A stretch of DNA of 64,000 nt from a virus. A program made the translations under genes and the position numbers. Of the stretch, positions 43,119-51,779 are shown piece after piece (positions within the stretch are counted from its first letter, which is position 1; the number at the start of each line of letters is the position of its first letter). The notes under the pieces are model-generated. The model was not told the origin of the DNA. It worked only from the letters and a program-made list of their open reading frames with translations, and did not search any database. Location: IMG/VR virus record IMGVR_UViG_3300047558_000077, positions 32,001 to 96,000 of that record; one strand, given 5' to 3'.

Positions 43119-43195
43119 GGTTCCATAGCTCAACAGGATAGAGCAACCGCCTTCTAAGCGGTAGGTTGAAGGTTCGAATCCTTCTGGGACCGCCA
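43119..43195 (+). tRNA. tRNA-Arg(TCT)
   Basis: Cloverleaf, CCA. Confidence 0.95.
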
Positions 43196-43200
43196 TTTAT

Positions 43201-43291
43201 GGGGGTGGGTGTAAGACACAAGAGGGACTTATAAACCCTTTAGCGGCCGATTACCGTTCTCGACCAGGAGCGTTACCTGGCACCCCTACCA
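43201..43291 (+). tRNA. Atypical tRNA-Ile(TAT)-like gene
   Basis: 7-bp acceptor plus ACCA, 3-nt D-loop, CTTATAA loop, long extra arm, T-loop AGCGTTA. Confidence 0.6.
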
Positions 43292-43306
43292 ACTTTGGAG
43301 TATGAC

Positions 43307-43453
43307 ATGGAAAACTTTGAACTGCTCTATCAGTGTTATCTATCTGGTCAAATGTCTGAAATGCAGTGGCAACTACATTTGAAGTGTGACGAAGGCCTAC
43401 AAGATTGGTATAAATGTAAACAGACTGCCTACTCTATAGAAGCGATAGAATAA
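43307..43453 (+). CDS. 48-aa hypothetical protein
   Basis: GGAG SD; MENFELLYQCYLSGQ... Confidence 0.5.
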   Translation: MENFELLYQCYLSGQMSEMQWQLHLKCDEGLQDWYKCKQTAYSIEAIE

Positions 43454-43455
43454 GG

Positions 43456-43750
43456 GTGCGTCATTCTATCGCAGTTTTTTGTGGTTGACTTCTGAATCCG
43501 TTTGGACTATATTACGTGAACGGTGGGACGAAACAGAGAGACAGGAACACGGTGCGACAACCTGACGCACTTTTTTCTGAAAAAAGTTCTTGACTTCCTG
43601 TTTTTGATGCTATATAGTATGCGAACGATGAAACGAAAGAGGGAAACAGGAAATCAGAGTGCGACGGAATGTCTCACTTTTTCCTAAAAAAAAGTTCTTG
43701 ACTTCCTGTTTGAGTCGTGTATAATACTCAAACGATGAAACAAGGAGACA
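43456..43750 (+). repeat. Three tandem ~100-bp units: palindrome + T-run + TTGACT promoter + short purine-rich transcript
   Basis: Units start 43456, 43552, 43659; -35 at 43485, 43590, 43698. Confidence 0.8.
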
Positions 43751-43754
43751 CGGA

Positions 43755-43940
43755 ATGAAAGATGAAGCCGTGAAACGAGACTATTTCTGGGTGGTAGAAG
43801 TTACCGATCATAATGGTCGTGTAAACTATCGCAAGGAATATCATAATAAAGATGGTTCGGCATTTCGTGATTATGCTCGGTTGAAAACGCAGGGTACCGT
43901 TTGTATCCAGCGTAAGTTCAAAGAGTATAAGATTGCCTAA
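43755..43940 (+). CDS. Small hypothetical protein
   Basis: AAGGAG SD, driven by the third promoter of the array. Confidence 0.6.
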   Translation: MKDEAVKRDYFWVVEVTDHNGRVNYRKEYHNKDGSAFRDYARLKTQGTVCIQRKFKEYKIA

Positions 43941-43977
43941 TCAACCGCTGTTTGACAATTGAATCAGGATTGTATAA

Positions 43978-44053
43978 GGTGCCGTGCCCGGAATGGTTAC
44001 GGGGCGGTCTGCAAAACCGTTTTATGTGGGTTCAACTCCCATCGGCACCTCCA
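43978..44053 (+). tRNA. tRNA-Cys(GCA)
   Basis: Cloverleaf, U73, CCA. Confidence 0.93.
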
Positions 44054-44193
44054 ATACTCTTAGAAAGATGTAGGCTCGTGCGGGCAAGGCGCCAATAAAA
44101 CTGATGCCCAAACCTTGTGTCACAATAGGTTCTGCTCTGGATTGCAACTATCAGAATGACTGACATAGTAAACCTACATCTCTCTAAGAGTAT
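44054..44193 (+). ncRNA. Unassigned structured RNA closed by a 20/21-bp stem
   Basis: ATACTCTTAGAAAGATGTAGG ... CCTACATCTCTCTAAGAGTAT. Confidence 0.6.
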
Positions 44194-44196
44194 TAT

Positions 44197-44275
44197 TCCG
44201 GAGAATCCGAGCAAGGTGCATGGACGTGACTGTTAATCACTGGTTAGTGGGGTTCGATTCCCCAATCCGGAGCCA
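44197..44275 (+). tRNA. tRNA-Asn(GTT)
   Basis: Cloverleaf, CCA. Confidence 0.9.
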
Positions 44276-44280
44276 ATTAC

Positions 44281-44355
44281 CGCCCCTTCGTCTAGTGGCT
44301 AGGATAACTGCCTTTCAAGCAGTAGAAACGGGATCGAAACCCGTAGGGGTGACCA
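44281..44355 (+). tRNA. tRNA-Glu(TTC)
   Basis: Cloverleaf, CCA. Confidence 0.9.
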
Positions 44356-44360
44356 ATAAT

Positions 44361-44436
44361 GGCCGTGTAGGTTTCTGGGGAAACCACTTGTCTGTCTAAC
44401 AAGTTTAGGTGGGTTCGATCCCCATCACGGTCGCCA
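44361..44436 (+). tRNA. tRNA-Asp(GTC)
   Basis: Cloverleaf, G73, CCA. Confidence 0.9.
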
Positions 44437-44450
44437 TTTGTATAGTATAT

Positions 44451-44526
44451 GGACCGTTAGCTCAGTTGGTAGAGCAGCCGACTCTTAATCGGCTTGTCGC
44501 AGGTTCGAACCCTGCACGGTCTACCA
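44451..44526 (+). tRNA. tRNA-Lys(CTT)
   Basis: Cloverleaf, CCA. Confidence 0.95.
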
Positions 44527-44531
44527 TTTAT

Positions 44532-44607
44532 GGATCCGTAGCACAATAGGTGGTGCAAGGGACTTTTAATCCCAAGGCTGTCGGTTCGAGCCCGACCGGA
44601 TCCTCCA
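44532..44607 (+). tRNA. tRNA-Lys(TTT)
   Basis: Cloverleaf, CCA. Confidence 0.92.
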
Positions 44608-44611
44608 ATAT

Positions 44612-44685
44612 GCGGCAGAAGTGTTACGGTAGCACAATAGGCTTCCACCCTGTTAGCGTGGGTTCGACTCCCACTTGCCGCTCCA
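44612..44685 (+). tRNA. tRNA-Gly(TCC)
   Basis: Cloverleaf, U73, CCA. Confidence 0.9.
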
Positions 44686-44689
44686 GTAT

Positions 44690-44781
44690 AGATACATCAT
44701 ATTCTGGACATATCGGAGCACCGAGGTCATATGTTATGTCGTCATTGACGGCGAGATTAGAGACTTCTGCATGATGTATCT
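44690..44781 (+). ncRNA. Unassigned structured RNA (11-bp closing stem, internal hairpins)
   Basis: AGATACATCAT ... ATGATGTATCT. Confidence 0.5.
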
Positions 44782-44788
44782 TTTTTAT

Positions 44789-44915
44789 AGATAAACTAGG
44801 TATCTCTTCGAGAGAGAAATAGGTGGGTAAAGAGTTGAAATACTCCATAGAGCCTCTAAGCAGATTGAAACGAGGTAGTCAACACTATGCAGTTTGATCC
44901 TGCACTAGTTTATCT
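44789..44915 (+). ncRNA. Unassigned structured RNA with a T-arm-like hairpin
   Basis: AGATAAACTAG ... CTAGTTTATCT; TGCAG-TTTGATC-CTGCA just before the 3' strand. Confidence 0.55.
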
Positions 44916-44922
44916 TTTTATT

Positions 44923-44996
44923 GCGGATGTAGTTTAATGGTAAAACGGTACCTTGCCAAGGTACAGTCGATGGTTCGATTCCATCCGTCCGCTCCA
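44923..44996 (+). tRNA. tRNA-Gly(GCC)
   Basis: Cloverleaf, CCA. Confidence 0.95.
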
Positions 44997-44999
44997 TTA

Positions 45000-45166
45000 C
45001 TCGTCCGAGGAGTTGGATACCTTGGGCTACCATATTACACGGGTGCGCTGTGTGGTATGGGTATAGGTGGCGGCAACCTAAACGTCCGTCTTAGCGCATC
45101 GTCTTATCCAGGCAAATCTGCCACAACGAAATAGTGGCTGGGAGATGGTAGTAACTCCCTGCGAGA
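45000..45166 (+). ncRNA. Unassigned GC-rich multi-stem RNA
   Basis: Nested pairings GGAGTT/AACTCC, CTACCAT/ATGGTAG, GGTGCGCT/AGCGCATC, GCCAC/GTGGC. Confidence 0.5.
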
Positions 45167-45171
45167 TTTAT

Positions 45172-45252
45172 CTCCACGTATCCACCTTCGCTACGAACGA
45201 AGAGTAAGGTAACTGGATGCAAATGCAGGTTCGAATCCTGTCGTGGAGTCCA
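45172..45252 (+). tRNA. Topologically rearranged tRNA-Arg(ACG)-like gene
   Basis: Acceptor CTCCACG/CGTGGAG-T-CCA, normal T-arm; anticodon arm nested inside the TCCA/TGGA D-stem. Confidence 0.65.
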
Positions 45253-45348
45253 GGTCGCTGGATTACTAATCGATGGTTCCTAGGCCTATCGAGGTGTGTA
45301 CCAGTAGTGGAAGCCCGTCACCACTATAAGAAAGCGTGGCTGCTATTC

Positions 45349-45423
45349 GCTGGTAGGTCGGCAAGATGTCGAGGCGCTCTCATAAGGCGTTTAAGGTTGG
45401 TTTAATTCCAACTATCAGCACCA
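45349..45423 (+). tRNA. tRNA-Met/Ile2(CAT)
   Basis: Cloverleaf, CCA. Confidence 0.8.
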
Positions 45424-45429
45424 GTTTAT

Positions 45430-45504
45430 TGCGGTCAGGTGGTCCGGAGACCATTCTTGTCTCATAAGCAAGAGAGCCATGTTCGACTCATGGGTCCGCA
45501 TCCA
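45430..45504 (+). tRNA. tRNA-Met(CAT)
   Basis: Cloverleaf with one U-U acceptor mismatch, CCA. Confidence 0.8.
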
Positions 45505-45565
45505 ATGTTGGTAAAGTGGTTCAGAGAACCGCATTTTACTAAATAAGGGTAGGAGGTACCTACCA

Positions 45566-45883
45566 ATGGTCGCAAGAAACAAATACGGTATAAAGAAAAC
45601 TAATGAAGAGGTATTTGTAGAAAACTCTACATATCCGAGACATAGGTTAAAAGAACGGATCATAAAAGAAGAAATGATCCCGTATGTGTGCCATGAATGT
45701 GGTATGGATGACAACTGGAACGGTAAGAAAATCGTTTTACAGTTAGACCATATAAATGGTGTGAATGATGATAATAGAATGAATAACCTTCAGTTCTTGT
45801 GTCCTAATTGTCATTCACAAACTCATACATACGCAGCAAAGAATAGACATAACTCTGCGAGAAAACCAAAGAGATATGTTTGA
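45566..45883 (+). mobile_element. HNH endonuclease inserted in the tRNA array
   Basis: CHEC, LQLDHING..DNRMNNLQFLCPNCH; late promoter 45538 and SD hairpin GGTAGG/CCTACC. Confidence 0.85.
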
Positions 45884-45884
45884 T

Positions 45885-45958
45885 GTTGGTGTAGTGTAAC
45901 GGTAGCACAACGGCCTCCAAACCCGTTAGTAGGGGTTCAAATCCTCTCACCTTCGCCA
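45885..45958 (+). tRNA. tRNA-Trp(CCA), acceptor with two U-U mismatches
   Basis: GTTGGTG/CACCTTC-G-CCA; CTCCAAA loop. Confidence 0.8.
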
Positions 45959-45965
45959 GTTTTAT

Positions 45966-46041
45966 CTAGGTGTAGCTCAATTGGCAGAGCATCCCGTTTG
46001 GGGCGGGAAGGCTGTTGGTTCAAGTCCAGCCACCTAGACCA
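45966..46041 (+). tRNA. tRNA-Pro(TGG)
   Basis: Cloverleaf, CCA. Confidence 0.94.
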
Positions 46042-46353
46042 TTTACGAAAGTGACATAGATATGGATACAGAATATCTAAAACGCCAAGCAATCTTTAGA
46101 CTTGTCGTGTTTTTTGTTATCGCTGTTGTAATAGGATTTATAGTGAGTGATATTAACATTCTAATGAGCCAATGAGGTATAACTATGTTTAAGATTACAG
46201 AAGAGACTAAAAAAGAAGCTGTTGATAAGATGATAGAAATTCTTTTATTTGAAAGAATTGATAATAGAGAAAAGTTTGAAGAAGCATTTGATGCTGCCGT
46301 CGCTATCGTAATGAAGCAGTTTGGTATTAGTATAGATGTATAACATATAATAT

Positions 46354-46444
46354 GGAGAGTTGGCTGAGTGGTCGAAAGCGGCCGTTTGCTAAATGGTTGA
46401 ACCCTAATACGGTTCCATAGGTTCGAATCCTATACTCTCCGCCA
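46354..46444 (+). tRNA. tRNA-Ser(GCT)
   Basis: Long variable arm, G73, CCA. Confidence 0.93.
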
Positions 46445-46448
46445 ATTC

Positions 46449-46537
46449 GGAGTAAGTAACAGGCAAGGAGTCTGCACCGCTTGGAAAGCGGATGGTTCCC
46501 GAAAGGGAATAGGTGTCGGATACCTACTACTCCGCCA
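46449..46537 (+). tRNA. tRNA-Ser(GGA), divergent
   Basis: Long variable arm, atypical T-loop, GCCA. Confidence 0.75.
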
Positions 46538-46544
46538 ATTCAAT

Positions 46545-46633
46545 GGATGGTTAAGCAGAGCGGCCTCTGTCCTCGCCTCGAAAGCGAAGGGTGCCTGTAA
46601 AGGCATGGTGATCGACACATCAGCCATCCGCCA
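46545..46633 (+). tRNA. tRNA-Ser(CGA)
   Basis: Long variable arm, GCCA. Confidence 0.8.
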
Positions 46634-46719
46634 ATTGTGCCTTCCATCAACGGCGTCCCCGTTAGGACACAGCAGGTTAGCCAGTCCCCTGTTGGAAGAA
46701 ATGTCTGGCACAGTTTTAT

Positions 46720-46794
46720 GCGGGCTTAGTTCAGAGGTAGAACATCGGTGTTACATACCGAGTGTCGGTGGTTCGATTCCATCAGCCCGCACCA
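46720..46794 (+). tRNA. tRNA-Val(TAC)
   Basis: Cloverleaf, CCA. Confidence 0.92.
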
Positions 46795-46799
46795 TTTAT

Positions 46800-46876
46800 G
46801 CCCCTCTAGCCCAACTGGTAGAGGTGTCTGACTTAGAATCAGAAGGTTCTCAGTTCGAATCTGAGGAGGGGCACCA
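46800..46876 (+). tRNA. tRNA-Leu(TAG), short variable loop
   Basis: Cloverleaf, A73, CCA. Confidence 0.9.
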
Positions 46877-46880
46877 ATTT

Positions 46881-46956
46881 GCGTTCTTGGTGTAGGTGAT
46901 CCGCACGCCTGTTTGAAGCACAGAAGGACTTAGTTTGATTCTAAGAGAACGCACCA
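46881..46956 (+). tRNA. tRNA-Phe(GAA)
   Basis: Cloverleaf, CCA. Confidence 0.82.
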
Positions 46957-46961
46957 GTTAT

Positions 46962-47038
46962 GCCCTCGTAGCCCAATCGGCAGAGGCAGTTGGCTCAAAC
47001 CCAATACAGTGTCGGTTCGAATCCGACCGAGGGCACCA
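46962..47038 (+). tRNA. tRNA-Leu(CAA), short variable loop
   Basis: Cloverleaf, A73, CCA. Confidence 0.9.
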
Positions 47039-47044
47039 ATATAT

Positions 47045-47118
47045 GCTGGCATAGTGTAAAGGTAGCACACGAGATTGTGGATCTTGTAGACTAGGATCGT
47101 TACCTGGTGCCAGTACCA
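47045..47118 (+). tRNA. tRNA-His(GTG), no G-1, G1:U72, A73
   Basis: Cloverleaf, preceded by T, ends T-A-CCA. Confidence 0.88.
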
Positions 47119-47126
47119 GGGCGGCC

Positions 47127-47201
47127 GCTGCCGTAGCTCAGTGATAGAGCATTCCCTTGGTAAGGGAAAGGTCGAAGGTTTGATTCCTTCCGGCAGCACC
47201 A
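47127..47201 (+). tRNA. tRNA-Thr(GGT)
   Basis: Cloverleaf, CCA. Confidence 0.92.
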
Positions 47202-47450
47202 TAAATATAATGTTGAACGATCAAGTTCGCATAGGAGTCTTTTAGATGATCGTCATTTCAGACAAGGCCAATAGTAAAGTAATAATTTCAGAAGAAGTCA
47301 ATAGAGAACTTAGTCAGCTTGTGATGACCACACTAAAGACAAAGTTTCCGAATATTGATGAAACAACTCTAACAGATATCATGACAACGCAGAGAGATAT
47401 TTACATCGACTTTCTAAATGAAAGATATAATACGGTAGAACAATGGAACA

Positions 47451-48029
47451 ATGAGAAGACAATACTCTGGTAACATATTAAACTTATGTGATCGACTAAA
47501 AGTAAGAATATATGATTTAGTAGGTTATGATAGCAAAAACAATCCAGAAGGTTGTTTGACAGGATACACCACAGCACACTTCAATAATCCTGTAGGCCGT
47601 AGATTGGATAAGTTGCCGGAGTTTAAAGAACCTTTAGATTTTGTTTTGAATACAGCAAAAGATTATGCCGTTGAAAACGGCTTAGACAAAGATCATCTAA
47701 CGACTGTCATGTGTTGGGTAAATGTCTATCCTCCTGGAACATTCATTAGTGCCCATAAACATATAACATTCGATAATCTGTTTACGTCCGTATTTTACTT
47801 ACAGAGTAAAGAAGACTCTGGGCAATTATATGTTGCCGACGATCCTAATCCAAAGAATATAAAGCAAGGTGAAGTGTATATTTTTCCTTCCAATATAGAT
47901 CATTGGACAACACCAAATGAAAGTGTTCAGGATAGAATAGTTTTCGGATGTGACTTTGTTTACTATCATATAGACGACCAAACAGTGGATAGAATCCTAT
48001 CTAACTGGCTTGACCGAAAAAAGACTTGA
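47451..48029 (+). CDS. Putative 2OG-Fe(II) oxygenase
   Basis: WVNVY, HKH, SVFYL, IFPSNIDH, RIVF. Confidence 0.75.
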   Translation: MRRQYSGNILNLCDRLKVRIYDLVGYDSKNNPEGCLTGYTTAHFNNPVGRRLDKLPEFKEPLDFVLNTAKDYAVENGLDKDHLTTVMCWVNVYPPGTFISAHKHITFDNLFTSVFYLQSKEDSGQLYVADDPNPKNIKQGEVYIFPSNIDHWTTPNESVQDRIVFGCDFVYYHIDDQTVDRILSNWLDRKKT

Positions 48030-48080
48030 CATTCCGTTTCGGGTGTGCTATTATTAGACATAATGAGAAAGGAAAACGGA

Positions 48081-48557
48081 ATGAATAAGGTTTGGATTTT
48101 TGATATTGACGGAACGCTTGCTAACGTCCATCATCGTTGGCATCATATCAACGGTGGTGGTAAAAAGAACTGGGACGCATTCTTTGCCGATCAAATCAAG
48201 GACGAACCTTATCAGCCAGTGATGGATATCCTTCATGCTCTTGTGTCACATTATGTAGACGGAAGAAATAAGGTAATCTTTGTTACTGCTCGGGATGAAC
48301 GATTTCGGGAAGTCAGTTTACAGTGGCTAAATCGTCATATCAAGTATAAGGTTAGTGACGAAGACCTGTATATGCGTCCTGCTGGTAATCGTGAAAACGA
48401 TGACCTTATCAAGGTGCGTATTATCAAGAATTGGTTACAGCGGCATCCTGCTTATGAAGTCGGTGCGATCTTCGAAGATCGGCATCGGATTATCGATGCG
48501 TTTCGTGCCGAAGGCTGGTATACTTTTGAGTGTAACCAGCAGCGTTTAGAGTTTTAG
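48081..48557 (+). CDS. HAD phosphatase (T4 PseT/PNK 3'-phosphatase-like)
   Basis: FDIDGTLA, VTAR, LYMRPAG, FEDR; own promoter TTGACA 48026 / TATTAT 48049. Confidence 0.85.
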   Translation: MNKVWIFDIDGTLANVHHRWHHINGGGKKNWDAFFADQIKDEPYQPVMDILHALVSHYVDGRNKVIFVTARDERFREVSLQWLNRHIKYKVSDEDLYMRPAGNRENDDLIKVRIIKNWLQRHPAYEVGAIFEDRHRIIDAFRAEGWYTFECNQQRLEF

Positions 48558-48563
48558 AGTTAT

Positions 48564-48637
48564 TGTCCCTTAGCTCAAAGGTAGAGCAATGTGCTGATAA
48601 CACATAGACACTGGATCGTTACCAGTAGGGACAACCA
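48564..48637 (+). tRNA. tRNA-Ile(GAT)
   Basis: Cloverleaf, CCA. Confidence 0.9.
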
Positions 48638-48641
48638 ATAT

Positions 48642-48727
48642 GGGGGACTATTTGGCTAAGGACGCCAAGGGGTCTGTAAAACTCAAGCCTATGTGCTGGC
48701 CCGGATCGTTACCGGGGTCCCCTACCA
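48642..48727 (+). tRNA. tRNA-Tyr(GTA)
   Basis: Long variable arm, CCA. Confidence 0.8.
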
Positions 48728-48733
48728 AATTAC

Positions 48734-48790
48734 GGGCGAGAGCAAGGATGCATCCTAGGTTATAGGGGTTCGATTCCCCCTCGTCCACCA
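48734..48790 (+). ncRNA. 57-nt mini tRNA-Ala-like RNA (G3:U70, A73, no D-arm)
   Basis: GGGCGAG/CTCGTCC-A-CCA, GGGG-TTCGATT-CCCC T-arm, AGGA-TGCA-TCCT hairpin. Confidence 0.65.
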
Positions 48791-48796
48791 GTTTAT

Positions 48797-48870
48797 TCGG
48801 GGTTAGTTTAATGGTAGAACGTCGGTCTTTGGAACCGACTGTCTGGGTTCGAGTCCTAGACCCCGATCCA
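48797..48870 (+). tRNA. tRNA-Gln(TTG)
   Basis: U1:A72, cloverleaf, CCA. Confidence 0.92.
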
Positions 48871-49123
48871 AATACCGGTTTCGGTCGCCCGGTCTGTTGC
48901 TGGCAACATAAGCAAGGCACGATTAAGTTGCGTATGCTGCTTATGCCAAGGGCAAGATACAGATAAAACCGAGCCTTTTTGTTGTAAGGAATACACTATG
49001 AACAAGGTGAAAGTTTCTCTTAGAGAAATCATGGAAGATGATAATCATCCACTTATGCTGAAATGGGTAGATGAGTTTCACTCAACACTTAGGGAAAAAA
49101 TCCAAAGTTATATAATGAAATTT

Positions 49124-49198
49124 TCAGGGATAGTTTAACAGGTAAAACCACGGACTCTGACTCCGTATTTCTTGGTTCGAATCCAGGTCCCTGATCCA
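49124..49198 (+). tRNA. tRNA-Gln(CTG)
   Basis: U1:A72, cloverleaf, CCA. Confidence 0.92.
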
Positions 49199-49215
49199 AC
49201 ACTAAAGGATATATT

Positions 49216-49710
49216 ATGAATAAGTTCTTGACAACCGCAGTCGTTTTTGCTACACTTACAACTTCGGCAATGGCCGACCCTGTTACCGATTTTTTCGGTG
49301 GTATCTTTGGCGATCAATCGCCTCCACAAGCAAGAATGAGAAAGAGTAAACATGCAAGACACACAGTTCCACAGAATGCTAACGACGGTGGTAATGATGA
49401 TTGGACTGCTTCTTGGGGCCATTCTAATCATGGAAGCAGTCATATGGTCGCTTCATTTTATGGGCATGGAGAACACCTTTCAAGACACACCGCCTCGGGC
49501 GCACTTTTCAATCCTCATGGATACACAGCCGCACATCGCAGTTATCCATTCGGCACTCATTTGAGAGTATGTCATCATGGATGTGTTACAGTTGTGGTCA
49601 ACGATAGAGGACCATTTGTCAGGGGTCGTTCTCTTGATCTTTCTTATGGTGCTGCAAGGGCTATTGGCATGGGTAGCACTTCAAATATCTCCGTTGAAAG
49701 ACTAAACTAG
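49216..49710 (+). CDS. RlpA-like (DPBB) lytic transglycosylase with signal peptide
   Basis: ASFYG, TASG, TAAHRSYPFGT, VNDRGPF, LDLSYGAA. Confidence 0.9.
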   Translation: MNKFLTTAVVFATLTTSAMADPVTDFFGGIFGDQSPPQARMRKSKHARHTVPQNANDGGNDDWTASWGHSNHGSSHMVASFYGHGEHLSRHTASGALFNPHGYTAAHRSYPFGTHLRVCHHGCVTVVVNDRGPFVRGRSLDLSYGAARAIGMGSTSNISVERLN

Positions 49711-49720
49711 ATAGTTATAC

Positions 49721-49795
49721 GGGCCTGTAGTTCAGGGGGAGAACGTCTGCTTTGCAAGCAGAATGTCGGCGGTTCGATTCCGTCCAGGTCCACCA
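49721..49795 (+). tRNA. tRNA-Ala(TGC)
   Basis: G3:U70, cloverleaf, CCA. Confidence 0.94.
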
Positions 49796-49799
49796 ATAT

Positions 49800-49874
49800 G
49801 CTTCATTCGTCTACTGGCTAGGACACCCGCCTCTCAAGCGGGAAAAAGGAGATCGATACTCCTATGAAGCACCA
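49800..49874 (+). tRNA. tRNA-Glu(CTC)
   Basis: Cloverleaf, CCA. Confidence 0.9.
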
Positions 49875-49893
49875 AACACTAGAGAGTTATATC

Positions 49894-50502
49894 ATGGAAA
49901 TTATTAAAGACCTTCTCTCAAAAGAAAAGCAAAATGAAATTGAACATACTATGTTAAAAACTTCATTTCCGTGGTACTTCAATAGTGAAGCAACATATGA
50001 TATGTTCAATGATAATCGAACACTAAACACATCTTTCTTTGGTCATATGTTTTTCTATGGCGGTAAGATTGATTCGGAGTATTATTATCCGTTGATTTGT
50101 CAGCCGATCATCGAGGCTCTTGAACGTCACCAAGGTAGACGTTTTCAAAATCGTGTTTGGCGTATCAAAGCCAATCTCTACACGAAAGACGGATCATATC
50201 CAGAAGACTTTCATCATCCTCCACACATAGACAATTCAGAAGATAACTTCCGGGGAGAAACTTTTCTCTACTTTGTCAATGATGCTGATGGTGATACTTT
50301 TATGTTTAATGAGCATTACGACTATGTTCATAAGCGTTATGGTCCCGAAGGATTTAAAGGAAACTTTACAAATCAGCTAAGGATTCCGCCAGAAAAAGGT
50401 AAGTCAGTATTATTCCCACTGACACAATGTCATACATCATCTATCCCTAGAAAAGGTGGTCCACGCATCACATTAAACTTTGTGTTCGGTGAATATTTCT
50501 GA
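49894..50502 (+). CDS. 2OG-Fe(II) oxygenase-like protein
   Basis: PHID, LYFVNDADGDT, HTSSIP, RITLNF. Confidence 0.75.
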   Translation: MEIIKDLLSKEKQNEIEHTMLKTSFPWYFNSEATYDMFNDNRTLNTSFFGHMFFYGGKIDSEYYYPLICQPIIEALERHQGRRFQNRVWRIKANLYTKDGSYPEDFHHPPHIDNSEDNFRGETFLYFVNDADGDTFMFNEHYDYVHKRYGPEGFKGNFTNQLRIPPEKGKSVLFPLTQCHTSSIPRKGGPRITLNFVFGEYF

Positions 50503-50895
50503 TTGACAAATCTAGAAAATGCTATATACTAATGATTGTGCATTGCACAATTGAAACGGATGCTTCGCCTAATGGGAAGCGCAACTGAAAAGGAAAAGGA
50601 ATGAATAAGATTATTCCACTACTAACAGTTTTAGTATTGACATCCTCTGCTAATGCTGTAGAATATAACACTGATAGTTTTGAAAAGTATGGATACGGTA
50701 GTGCTGCGTCTGTGATTCCTGATACCAATCTAAAGAGCGGTCTTCGTGGATTACATGTAGCTTGTAATCATCCTACCACTAACGCATACTATCCAGGCTA
50801 TCTAGCAGTACCAGAGGCTGGTAAACAGACACACTAAATAATGAACATTGGTCCCACGGAATTTCCGTGGGGCTCCTACCTGAAGGTGAGAAAAC

Positions 50896-51225
50896 ATGAG
50901 AAAGTTGTCTATTGCTCTTGTCGCAGTTCTTGGTCTTTCCCTAGCCGCAGCTACACCAGCTAAAGCCCAGTTTTGGGGCGGTTACTATCCTGGTTTCTAC
51001 GGAGGTTGGGGTTACGGCGGCTATGGTTACGGTGCAGCCGCTCTTGCTGCAGGACTAGCAGTAGGTGCTATTGCTGGTGCTATCGCTGCTAGTAATCAGC
51101 CATACTACGGTCCATATTATGGTGGCTATTATGAACCGGCTCCACGAGTATATCAGCGTAAGCAGATTATCATTCGCAATAGTCCTGGTGCCCGTGTAAT
51201 CGAACAGGACGTATTTGATTGGTGA
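50896..51225 (+). CDS. Secreted Gly/Tyr-rich protein of alphaproteobacterial type
   Basis: Signal peptide, GY repeats, AAGLAVGAIAGA glycine-zipper-like stretch. Confidence 0.55.
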   Translation: MRKLSIALVAVLGLSLAAATPAKAQFWGGYYPGFYGGWGYGGYGYGAAALAAGLAVGAIAGAIAASNQPYYGPYYGGYYEPAPRVYQRKQIIIRNSPGARVIEQDVFDW

Positions 51226-51703
51226 TCGTCTAATGTGCTACTACACCTTGACACTAGAAAAGAATATCCCTAACGAAGGTCATAAACGTGCGATTATGAT
51301 CCTCGATGCTAGGGATAAGAAAGAAGCAACCGCTAAGTTTCTAAATACTTTCGGTGCTCAATACTATAATGATATCGATCTGGTGGAGGGAATACATATT
51401 CCTGATGGCTTTGATCGGTTGTTAACAGATCAGGCTAGAAAGTATATCTTGAAAGCCAAGACAAAGGCAGATGATGCTCCGCCTTTGGTATCATATCAAA
51501 ACATGATCCATCTAAGCTATTGAGGAGAGCATGGAATATATTCTAGTGAATGAGTGGTACGTTTATTGGTATGCGACAGTTATGTTGTCGTTACTAACTT
51601 GGCTTAGTATCATGATTCTTTCAGGAACTGTGTTTATCGTTTCTGTAGTTTATGATATCGTCAAGCAGATATCTAATAAGTGGTCAACTAAAAACTAATC
51701 AAT

Positions 51704-51779
51704 GCCGGTATAGCTCAGTAGGTAGAGCAGTTGATTCGTAATCATCAGGTCGTGGGTTCGATTCCTGCTACCGGCACCA
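51704..51779 (+). tRNA. tRNA-Thr(CGT)
   Basis: Cloverleaf, CCA. Confidence 0.92.

What the first reader, a model, noticed from the sequence alone, without database searches (positions are those of the whole stretch)
45172..45252. tRNA-Arg(ACG) with rewired topology: anticodon arm nested inside the D-arm
Seen, 5' to 3': acceptor CTCCACG, TA, TCCA, C, anticodon arm CTTCG-CTACGAA-CGAAG, a D-loop-like AGTAAGGTAAC, TGGA (pairs with TCCA), linker TGCAAAT, T-arm GCAGG-TTCGAAT-CCTGT, CGTGGAG-T-CCA. All modules are intact, but the anticodon arm comes before the D-loop, which random decay would not produce. No canonical CGN reader appears in this window although CGT is heavily used. Inference: a non-cloverleaf functional tRNA or a tRNA mimic that evades host nucleases.
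Basis: seen in the sequence. Interest (0 to 1): 0.8.

Follow-up and report, generated by a model that had tools for sequence, protein, structure and literature searches.

The report
Phage arginine tRNA with rewired D-arm
This 81-base phage gene is very probably a working arginine tRNA whose D-arm is assembled from two pieces lying on either side of the anticodon arm. More than a hundred phage sequences share this non-cloverleaf layout, tRNA finders miss it, and I found no description of it in the literature I could search.

Summary
The same ~80-nt layout occurs in six GenBank phages, unannotated in all, and in more than 130 IMG/VR loci, always inside dense tRNA arrays. All seven acceptor pairs and all five anticodon-stem pairs covary.

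Covariation shows that the 5' connector CC (45182-45183) pairs with the GG of AAGGTAA (45208-45209). AACTGGAT (45211-45218) is therefore a canonical arginine-type D-loop, with A14, G18, G19 and A20, and it lies after the helix. In canonical terms, the D-stem 5' strand plus D-loop has moved to the 3' side of the anticodon arm.

Apart from one Ile (GAU) copy, family members carry only arginine anticodons: ACG, UCG, GCG, CCU and UCU. They usually fill the arginine slot that the array's canonical tRNAs leave empty:
- This 172-kb phage has no other CGN reader, although CGT is a top arginine codon.
- Rhizobium phage RHph_I1_18 has no canonical Arg tRNA but has two genes of this type.

The best reading is a functional non-cloverleaf tRNA-Arg charged by host ArgRS. 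Charging, inosine editing and the 3D fold are untested. An earlier report of this scan (e1-5669152) described the same class on other DNA.

The parts
45172..45178 (+). Acceptor stem, 5' strand (CTCCACG)
   Evidence: Pairs with 45242-45248. All 7 pairs covary and 99.8% of cells are paired across 87 sequences.
45179..45180 (+). U8 A9
   Evidence: Invariant in alignments A2 and A3, although neither position was fixed by the search patterns.
45181..45183 (+). D-stem strand a (TCC). It sits where canonical 22-24 sits, directly 5' of the anticodon arm.
   Evidence: C45182 pairs with G45209 (pair 11:39: CG 75, GC 9, AU 1, UA 1; 86/86 paired). C45183 pairs with G45208 (pair 12:38: CG 84, GC 1). A second subfamily uses CGG/CCG, CGA/TCG and ATG/CAT at the same place.
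45184..45185 (+). Two linker nucleotides (A, C). C45185 pairs with G45204, a pair resembling canonical 26:44.
   Evidence: Pair 14:34 is CG 57, GC 11, other 17. A45184 can pair with T45205 in this copy, but only 22 of 74 sequences pair there.
45186..45202 (+). Anticodon arm CTTCG-CTACGAA-CGAAG, with anticodon ACG at 45193-45195
   Evidence: All 5 pairs covary and 100% of cells are paired in A3. The loop has U33, A34, C35, G36 and A37. The close relative L091 differs from the window copy only by two compensatory stem pairs and C32A.
45203..45207 (+). Linker AGTAA between the anticodon stem and D-stem strand b. G45204 pairs with C45185.
   Evidence: The remaining positions vary without pairing.
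45208..45210 (+). D-stem strand b (GGT), the counterpart of canonical 11-13
   Evidence: Compensatory changes with 45182-45183.
45211..45218 (+). D-loop homolog AACTGGAT (A14 A15 C16 U17 G18 G19 A20 U20a)
   Evidence: It matches the commonest D-loop of canonical Arg tRNAs in the same phage arrays, AACTGGATA. An A follows GG in 38/44 canonical Arg tRNAs, against about 6% in other isotypes. The A of TGGA changes in only 1 IMG/VR hit.
45219..45224 (+). Variable-loop-like linker GCAAAT. The terminal U is a candidate U48 partner of A15 (45212).
   Evidence: Length varies from 5 to 9 nt, but the terminal AT is invariant and was not fixed by the search patterns. The Levitt-pair assignment is inference.
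45225..45241 (+). T arm GCAGG-TTCGAAT-CCTGT
   Evidence: 100% of cells are paired and 2 pairs covary. The T-loop has the TTCGA consensus.
45242..45252 (+). Acceptor stem 3' strand CGTGGAG, discriminator U73, and encoded CCA
   Evidence: CCA is encoded in 69 of 74 distinct family members. U73 also occurs in canonical Arg tRNAs of related arrays.

Best explanation
The region 45172-45252(+) encodes a functional arginine tRNA (anticodon ACG, probably edited to ICG) with permuted core connectivity.

The acceptor stem, anticodon arm, T arm and encoded CCA are canonical. The D-stem, however, forms between a short segment directly 5' of the anticodon arm (45181-45183, standing in for canonical 22-24, with 45185 standing in for 26) and a segment 3' of the anticodon arm (45208-45210, standing in for canonical 11-13). 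An ordinary arginine-type D-loop (AACUGGAU, 45211-45218) follows and leads through a variable-like linker into the T stem. The anticodon arm is therefore nested inside the D-stem, and the secondary structure is a three-way rather than a four-way junction.

Shown:
- The family exists, all helices covary, the anticodons are Arg anticodons, and the genes sit in phage tRNA arrays.
- The nucleotides used for canonical tertiary contacts and ArgRS identity are conserved: U8, A14, A15/U48, G18G19, T54/A58, A20 and C35.

Inferred:
- The RNA folds into a near-normal L-shape. The stack of D-stem, a 26:44-like pair and the 5-bp anticodon stem gives the same number of layers as a canonical tRNA.
- It is cut out of the array transcript by RNase P and 3' nucleases, and charged by the host ArgRS (the phage encodes none).
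- It is deaminated by host TadA and reads the phage's abundant CGU, CGC and CGA codons.

Why this wiring is selected is unknown. Escape from a host or phage nuclease that recognises the canonical tRNA-Arg core is a guess.
For: 1. Conservation. Unannotated homologs occur in 6 GenBank phages of Rhizobium, Xanthomonas, Stenotrophomonas and Microbacterium. IMG/VR holds 64 loci with a 24-base pattern and more than 120 with a looser one. In all, 131 loci carry the family, with a mean of 13.3 ARAGORN tRNAs per locus.

2. Covariation. Acceptor 7/7 pairs, anticodon stem 5/5 pairs, and the T stem 100% paired. The whole structure has 96.2% of cells paired against 69% in shuffles and at most 46% when the 3' partners are slid.

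3. The D-stem pairing is proven by compensatory changes. AGCTAA goes with a TA-N-GC connector, AGTTAA with AC, AGATAA with TC, ACGTAA with CG, and the second subfamily uses CGG/CCG, CGA/TCG and ATG/CAT.

4. Arg identity.
   - Among 74 distinct members the anticodon loops are ACG in 65, UCG in 4, GCG in 2, CCU in 1 and UCU in 1, with a single GAU. Further UCU, CCU and UCG paralogs appear.
   - The D-loop motif AACTGGAT equals that of canonical Arg tRNAs in the same arrays, with A20 in 86% of those against about 6% of other isotypes.

5. Slot filling.
   - This complete genome has 24 ARAGORN tRNAs plus 2 Rfam-only tRNAs, and no other CGN reader. CGT is 16.7 per 1000 codons.
   - RHph_I1_18 has 24 tRNAs, none of them Arg, but family-type ACG and UCU genes.
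   - L018 has four family-type Arg genes (ACG, UCG, UCU, CCU) and no canonical Arg tRNA.
   - In L012, L078, L086, L101, L102 and Zooman, family-type genes supply Arg anticodons that the canonical Arg tRNAs lack. Zooman's ACG is the one present in both forms.
   - A canonical Arg(ACG) lies alongside in only 5 of 131 loci.

6. CCA is encoded in 69 of 74 members.

7. Feasibility. E. coli EF-Tu, ribosome and HisRS accept a D-armless tRNA without adaptation (PMC11551756).
Against: There is no direct evidence of transcription, end processing, aminoacylation or A34-to-I editing.

The D-stem is only 2-3 Watson-Crick pairs in the main subfamily. The 10:40 pair forms in 35 of 86 sequences, RNAalifold predicts no such helix on energy alone, and nearest-neighbour energy does not separate the two wirings (-18.9 against -19.2 kcal/mol).

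Five loci, including a close relative of this phage (L047), also carry a canonical tRNA-Arg(ACG). The gene is therefore not always a replacement and could have a separate role.

The discriminator is U in about half of the members. From memory, that is not optimal for E. coli ArgRS, although canonical Arg tRNAs in these arrays share it. The 3D fold is inferred, not modelled.
Confidence: 0.7

Rival explanations
1. It is a tRNA-Arg mimic or decoy that is not used in translation. It would present an authentic tRNA-Arg anticodon loop, D-loop and acceptor end to soak up or misdirect a tRNA-Arg-targeting factor, such as an anticodon nuclease, a toxin or a defence sensor, or it would resist that factor while the host tRNA is destroyed.
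For: In 5 loci it coexists with a canonical tRNA-Arg(ACG), so it is not always needed as the only CGN reader. tRNA-cleaving defences that phage tRNA arrays counter are documented, for example Septu cleaving the tRNA-Tyr variable loop (PMC13096335, abstract seen). The array in this window also holds a PNKP-phosphatase-like ORF. From memory, the T4 polynucleotide kinase-phosphatase repairs nuclease-cut tRNA.
Against: A decoy would not need a covarying 7-bp acceptor stem, an encoded CCA, a complete T arm and an A20 D-loop all at once. It would also not need to diversify into all Arg anticodon classes that complement the canonical Arg tRNAs of the same array. Genomes whose only Arg tRNA genes are of this type argue for decoding.
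Confidence: 0.15
2. One reading: TCCA (45181-45184) pairs with TGGA (45214-45217), enclosing both the anticodon arm and an 11-nt D-loop AGTAAGGTAAC.
For: Four Watson-Crick pairs are possible in this one sequence. The energy is marginally better than for the alternative (-19.2 against -18.9 kcal/mol). In the 74-sequence alignment, CC and GG are invariant, so both wirings fit.
Against: When connector positions 11 and 12 change, TGGA stays the same: pair 11:46 becomes G.G in 9 sequences and A.G in 1. The GG of AGGTAA changes to compensate every time. The A of TGGA is kept whether position 10 is U or A, so 10:47 pairs in only 46 of 86 sequences. AACTGGAT matches canonical Arg D-loops.
Confidence: 0.04
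3. It is a decayed tRNA pseudogene, a chance look-alike or a local misassembly.
For: tRNA finders and the Rfam model reject it.
Against: More than 100 distinct copies occur on independent contigs and in cultured phage genomes, with compensatory changes in every helix.
Confidence: 0.01
4. It is a charged tRNA-Arg used outside ribosomal translation, for example as an arginine donor for an aminoacyl-transferase or a modification enzyme. The altered core would keep it away from EF-Tu or the ribosome.
For: It coexists with a canonical tRNA-Arg of the same anticodon in a few phages. All features that ArgRS needs are conserved.
Against: I saw no conserved neighbouring transferase gene. The neighbours are tRNAs, homing endonucleases and assorted small ORFs. 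Anticodon diversification that matches codon classes is unnecessary for a pure amino-acid donor.
Confidence: 0.05

Closest known systems
Canonical class I bacterial and phage tRNA-Arg (Rfam RF00005 cloverleaf), such as the canonical tRNA-Arg(ACG) in related arrays (L047:7866-7942, Zooman 89043-89115)
   Same: 7-bp acceptor stem, 5-bp anticodon stem with loop CUACGAA, T arm with TTCGA loop, discriminator plus CCA, U8 and A9, D-loop motif AACUGGAU with A20, and a position inside phage tRNA arrays.
   Different: No contiguous D hairpin. The D-stem strands flank the anticodon arm and the D-loop lies 3' of it, fused to the variable region. This gives a three-way instead of a four-way junction. RF00005 finds nothing at E<=10 and ARAGORN does not call it.
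D-armless mitochondrial tRNAs (for example metazoan mt-tRNA-Ser(AGY)) and the engineered D-armless 'mini HisT' used in E. coli (PMC11551756)
   Same: Only a few nucleotides lie between the acceptor stem and the anticodon stem, and the RNA is not a cloverleaf.
   Different: Those tRNAs have lost the D-stem and the G18G19 D-loop and fold differently. This family keeps both, relocated, along with all the elbow and core nucleotides.
Circularly permuted and split tRNA genes (Cyanidioschyzon merolae and Archaea; PMC3218864)
   Same: The order of tRNA segments in the gene differs from the cloverleaf order.
   Different: In those genes the permutation is at gene level and processing restores a normal tRNA. 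Here both acceptor halves sit at the gene ends and no bulge-helix-bulge motif is evident, so the mature RNA itself should carry the rearranged connectivity.
Earlier report of this scan, e1-5669152 (94-nt phage tRNA-Arg with relocated D-arm, other genome)
   Same: The same class: an Arg anticodon, no D hairpin, and the D-loop motif 3' of the anticodon arm. The 90-92-nt versions seen here (L138:965-1056, L125:3407-3496) carry an extra variable hairpin and probably correspond to it.
   Different: This copy is the short 81-nt form. Here the pairing partner of the connector was settled by compensatory variants.

Membership tests
tRNA (cloverleaf, Rfam RF00005) | 7-bp acceptor stem closing the molecule, followed by a discriminator and CCA | tested here: met
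   7/7 pairs covary and 99.8% of cells are paired. CCA is encoded in 69/74 members.
tRNA (cloverleaf, Rfam RF00005) | Anticodon arm with a 5-bp stem and a 7-nt loop carrying U33 and a purine at 37 | tested here: met
   5/5 pairs covary. The loop is CUACGAA.
tRNA (cloverleaf, Rfam RF00005) | T arm with a 5-bp stem and a T-loop of TTCRA consensus | tested here: met
   100% of cells are paired and the loop is GGTTCGA. The T-loop was part of the search patterns, so its invariance is partly forced.
tRNA (cloverleaf, Rfam RF00005) | Contiguous D hairpin between positions 9 and 26, giving a four-way junction | tested here: not met
   Only 5 nt separate A9 from the anticodon stem. The helix partner lies 3' of the anticodon arm. 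RF00005 gives no hit at E<=10, and ARAGORN gives none under any bacterial setting.
tRNA (cloverleaf, Rfam RF00005) | L-shaped tertiary fold with the D-loop/T-loop elbow | not testable with these tools
   The nucleotides for U8-A14, A15-U48, G18/G19-T-loop and T54-A58 are all present and conserved. No RNA 3D modelling or probing was available.
Bacterial tRNA-Arg identity set (A20, C35, G36 or U36; established knowledge, reviewed in PMC9976931, not re-read here) | C35 with G36 or U36 in the anticodon | tested here: met
   ACG, UCG, GCG, CCU and UCU account for 73 of 74 distinct members plus all divergent paralogs.
Bacterial tRNA-Arg identity set (A20, C35, G36 or U36; established knowledge, reviewed in PMC9976931, not re-read here) | A20 immediately after G18G19 in the D-loop | tested here: met
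   The A of TGGA is replaced in only 1 IMG/VR hit. A follows GG in 38/44 canonical Arg tRNAs of these arrays, against about 6% of other isotypes.
Bacterial tRNA-Arg identity set (A20, C35, G36 or U36; established knowledge, reviewed in PMC9976931, not re-read here) | Aminoacylation by ArgRS, and A34-to-I editing by TadA | not testable with these tools
The phage encodes no ArgRS.
D-armless mitochondrial-type tRNA | Loss of both the D-stem and the G18G19 D-loop | tested here: not met
   A D-stem is kept, shown by covariation, and a D-loop motif is kept. ARAGORN in metazoan-mitochondrial mode at lowered threshold reports only a 44-nt fragment.
Permuted or split tRNA gene processed to a normal tRNA | The 3' half lies upstream of the 5' half, with the acceptor ends internal and joined by a processed linker | tested here: not met
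   The acceptor strands are the two termini of the conserved unit, and the encoded CCA is at its 3' end.
tmRNA tRNA-like domain | No anticodon arm, a G3:U70 alanine identity pair, and an mRNA-like tag | tested here: not met
   A complete anticodon arm is present. Pair 3:78 is CG, GC, UA or AU and never GU. The phage's tmRNA lies elsewhere in the genome.

The most novel reading that the evidence does not exclude
These genes make a natural topological isomer of tRNA. The RNA would be translationally active and charged by the ordinary host ArgRS, with a D-stem built in trans around the anticodon arm and a D-loop that follows it, yet it would still fold into an L-shape. It would be the first non-cloverleaf elongator tRNA class in the bacterial and phage world. 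It is conserved across phages of Actinobacteria, Alpha- and Gammaproteobacteria and Bacteroidota-like hosts, and is possibly maintained because the rewired core escapes a nuclease or sensor that recognises canonical tRNA-Arg.
Probability: 0.6. Interest if true: 0.88.

Novelty: new variant of a known kind. Interest (0 to 1): 0.8.

Why it matters
[quoted passage not shown] A widespread, selected phage tRNA-Arg with permuted core connectivity would be a natural exception. It bears on four points:

- **Structure and recognition.** It shows that the tRNA core tolerates a strand swap. It also gives structural biologists and aaRS, TadA, RNase P and EF-Tu specialists a natural test case for what those enzymes actually recognise.
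- **Annotation.** Standard tRNA finders miss it, so phage tRNA complements are systematically undercounted for arginine. RHph_I1_18 appears to lack Arg tRNAs entirely, and this phage appears to lack a CGN reader.
- **Engineering.** It offers a ready scaffold for orthogonal tRNA design.
- **Phage-host conflict.** If the rewiring is an escape from tRNA-targeting immunity, it points to an undiscovered arginine-tRNA-directed defence.

Tried and rejected
- **tRNA finders.** The Rfam tRNA model at E<=10 on the 441-nt stretch found nothing over the element. ARAGORN found nothing in bacterial mode, at lowered thresholds or in intron mode. Only the metazoan-mitochondrial mode at lowered threshold gave a 44-nt 'mtRNA-Arg' fragment.
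- **Folding energies.**
  - The single-sequence MFE (-26.1 kcal/mol, z -2.5) is an elongated fold that is not conserved.
  - RNAalifold recovers only the three long helices.
  - Nearest-neighbour energy cannot choose between the two D-stem wirings.
- **The 74-sequence alignment alone** could not decide the wiring, because CC and both GG motifs are invariant. Directed scans for variants at the GG positions were needed.
- **Phage identity.** Megablast of 22 kb of the window against GenBank phages gave no match, so the phage has no close cultured relative there.
- **Literature.** Four full-text searches found no description of this layout. One survey of phage structured RNAs lists a candidate, DNAVirus_2961, that sometimes overlaps tRNA-Arg predictions (PMC10690425). 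Its sequence is not held, so I cannot say whether it is the same motif.
- **Co-evolved synthetase.** A phage-encoded ArgRS was sought in the phage genome and not found.
- **Flanking regions.** Both flanks fold no better than shuffled sequence (z -0.7 and -1.6).

Full report
**1. The observation**

The element lies in a same-strand array of 24 ARAGORN tRNAs (43119-51779) plus two tRNAs that only Rfam detects. Neither ARAGORN nor the Rfam tRNA model calls the element, even at E<=10 or at lowered thresholds. Only short spurious ORFs overlap it.

**2. It is a family, not a singleton**

A sensitive blastn search found unannotated homologs inside the tRNA clusters of six GenBank phages: Rhizobium phage RHph_I1_18, Xanthomonas phages XacN1 and Xoo-sp13, Stenotrophomonas phages CM1 and RAS14, and Microbacterium phage Zooman.

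A 24-base pattern of the layout hit 64 IMG/VR loci. After filtering for a closed acceptor stem, 74 distinct sequences share one plan:
- a 7-bp acceptor stem;
- TA followed by 5 nt;
- a 5/7/5 anticodon arm;
- 4 nt, then AGGTAA, 0-1 nt, then TGGA;
- 5-9 nt ending in AT;
- a T arm, the acceptor 3' strand, N73, and CCA (encoded in 69 of 74).

In total 131 fetched loci carry the family, with a mean of 13.3 canonical tRNAs per locus. Among one genome for each of 185,579 prokaryotic species there are only 5 hits, all in dense tRNA arrays of 10-20 tRNAs per 8 kb. The family is therefore a trait of phage tRNA arrays.

**3. Helices**

On the 87-sequence MAFFT alignment A3, all 7 acceptor pairs and all 5 anticodon-stem pairs show compensatory changes, and the T stem is 100% paired. 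Overall 96.2% of cells pair, against 69% in shuffles and at most 46% when the 3' partners are slid. L091 is identical to the window copy except for two compensatory anticodon-stem pairs and C32A.

**4. The wiring of the core**

In the first 74 sequences, CC and both GG motifs are invariant, so that pairing could not be told apart from CC pairing with the GG of AGGTAA.

Directed scans settled the question. The A of TGGA and the T of AGGT almost never change. Eighteen loci change the GG of AGGTAA, and in all but two, which share one sequence (L161/L163), the connector changes fully to match:
- AGCTAA goes with TA-N-GC;
- AGTTAA goes with AC;
- AGATAA goes with TC;
- ACGTAA goes with CG.

Pair 11:39 is CG 75, GC 9, AU 1 and UA 1 (86/86 paired), and pair 12:38 is CG 84 and GC 1.

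The covariance model R1 then recovered a second, more divergent subfamily. It carries UCU, CCU and UCG anticodons, and some members are 90-92 nt long with an extra variable hairpin. In it the same two segments pair as CGG/CCG, CGA/TCG or ATG/CAT. A further pair, 14:34 (45185:45204), alternates between CG (57) and GC (11).

**5. The D-loop**

With the helix placed correctly, the sequence that follows it, AACTGGAT (45211-45218), reads A14 A15 C16 U17 G18 G19 A20 U20a. Among canonical tRNAs in the same phage arrays, the commonest Arg D-loop is AACTGGATA. An A follows G18G19 in 38 of 44 Arg tRNAs, against about 6% in other isotypes. From established knowledge, A20 and C35 are the main bacterial ArgRS identity elements.

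The invariant U just before the T stem (45224) can act as U48 opposite A15 (45212), and U8 (45179) can pair with A14 (45211). These two assignments are inference.

Mapped onto canonical numbering:
- connector 45181-45185 corresponds to positions 22-26;
- 45208-45210 corresponds to positions 11-13;
- 45211-45218 corresponds to positions 14-20a.

So the block 'D-stem 5' strand plus D-loop' has moved from before the anticodon arm to after it. Three chain connections change: 9 to 22, 43 to linker to 11, and 20/21 to the variable region. From textbook tRNA structure, all three join residues that are neighbours in the canonical core, so a near-normal L-shape is plausible. That was not modelled here.

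**6. Function**

*Anticodons.* Of the 74 distinct main-family members, 73 carry an Arg anticodon: ACG 65, UCG 4, GCG 2, CCU 1 and UCU 1. The exception is a single GAU copy (L079).

*Slot filling.*
- This phage's genome is 172,364 bp and 100% complete by CheckV. It has no other CGN-reading tRNA. Its two dominant Arg codons are CGT (16.7 per 1000) and AGA (16.8 per 1000). The canonical tRNA-Arg(UCU) at 43119 serves AGA, and this gene would serve CGT.
- The cultured phage RHph_I1_18 has 24 ARAGORN tRNAs for 18 amino acids and none for Arg, but it has family-type ACG and UCU genes.
- Contig L018 has family-type ACG, UCG, UCU and CCU genes and no canonical Arg tRNA.
- In Zooman and several other contigs, family-type genes supply Arg anticodons that the canonical Arg tRNAs lack (for example UCU in Zooman).
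- A canonical Arg(ACG) coexists with the family gene in only 5 of 131 loci.

*Synthetase.* The phage encodes no ArgRS, so the host enzyme would have to charge this RNA.

*Feasibility.* E. coli translation can use even a fully D-armless tRNA (PMC11551756).

I therefore rate a functional, rewired tRNA-Arg at about 0.7. A non-translational mimic or decoy rates about 0.15, and other roles make up the rest.

**7. Comparison with known systems**

- It works like a canonical tRNA-Arg but fails the defining cloverleaf feature, a contiguous D hairpin.
- It is not a D-armless mitochondrial-type tRNA, because both the D-stem and the D-loop are kept.
- It is not a permuted gene that is processed back to normal, because the acceptor strands are the termini of the gene.
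- It is not a tmRNA-like domain.

Four literature searches found no description of it. One phage RNA survey mentions a candidate that overlaps tRNA-Arg calls, but I could not inspect it. An earlier report of this scan (e1-5669152) described the same class on another genome, and I reached the same layout independently from covariation.

**8. Verdict**

The element is real and under selection, and it is very probably a working tRNA-Arg(ACG) with a strand-permuted D-arm. I class it as a new variant of a known kind and score interest at 0.8.

Noticed in passing
window 45349-45420 (+): A tRNA with a CAU anticodon loop (CUCAUAA) that only Rfam finds, at 34.3 bits. ARAGORN misses it. It lies directly upstream of the ARAGORN tRNA-Met at 45430-45504, so the array has two CAU tRNAs. 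They could be initiator, elongator or tRNA-Ile2; this was not resolved.
   Followed up: partly
window 44361-44433 (+): A tRNA-Asp(GUC)-like gene found only by Rfam (45.5 bits). Its anticodon loop is CUGUCUA, with a pyrimidine at position 37, which may be why ARAGORN misses it.
   Followed up: partly
window 45253-45348 (+): A 96-nt spacer between the rewired tRNA-Arg and the next tRNA. It is absent from the close relative L047, where the two genes are 4 nt apart. It folds no better than shuffled sequence (z -0.7). The upstream 45099-45171 is about 95% conserved with L047 but is also not notably structured (z -1.6).
   Followed up: partly
window 48045-48557 (+): An ORF inside the tRNA array matches the phosphatase domain of polynucleotide kinase-phosphatase (PF25109, E 7e-18). 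It could be a tRNA end-healing or repair function sitting among the tRNA genes.
   Followed up: no
window 45566-45883 (+), 47451-48029 (+), 49864-50502 (+): An HNH endonuclease ORF and two 2OG-Fe(II) oxygenase-like ORFs are interspersed among the tRNA genes.
   Followed up: no
own genome C1:125940-126300 (outside the window): ARAGORN calls a tmRNA (shown with its asterisk flag) with tag AANDNVPFDYALAA. RHph_I1_18 also carries a phage tmRNA (tag ANDNSVQVRLAA, L001:945-1268). From memory, these tags resemble alphaproteobacterial ones, which hints at the host.
   Followed up: no
L079:190-271 (-): One family-type gene carries an isoleucine anticodon loop (CUGAUAU, GAU), has A73 and no encoded CCA. 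It may be a change of identity on the rewired scaffold.
   Followed up: no
L138:965-1056 (+), L125:3407-3496 (+): These are 90-92-nt versions of the rewired tRNA-Arg (UCG) with an extra GC-rich hairpin in the variable-like linker, lying next to a short-form GCG copy.
   Followed up: partly
L001 (MN988519.1), locus tags EVB91_034 to EVB91_036: In the GenBank record of RHph_I1_18, locus tag EVB91_035 is missing exactly where the rewired tRNA-Arg lies. The neighbouring tRNA-Ile carries a stray note reading 'transfer-messenger RNA, SsrA'.
   Followed up: no
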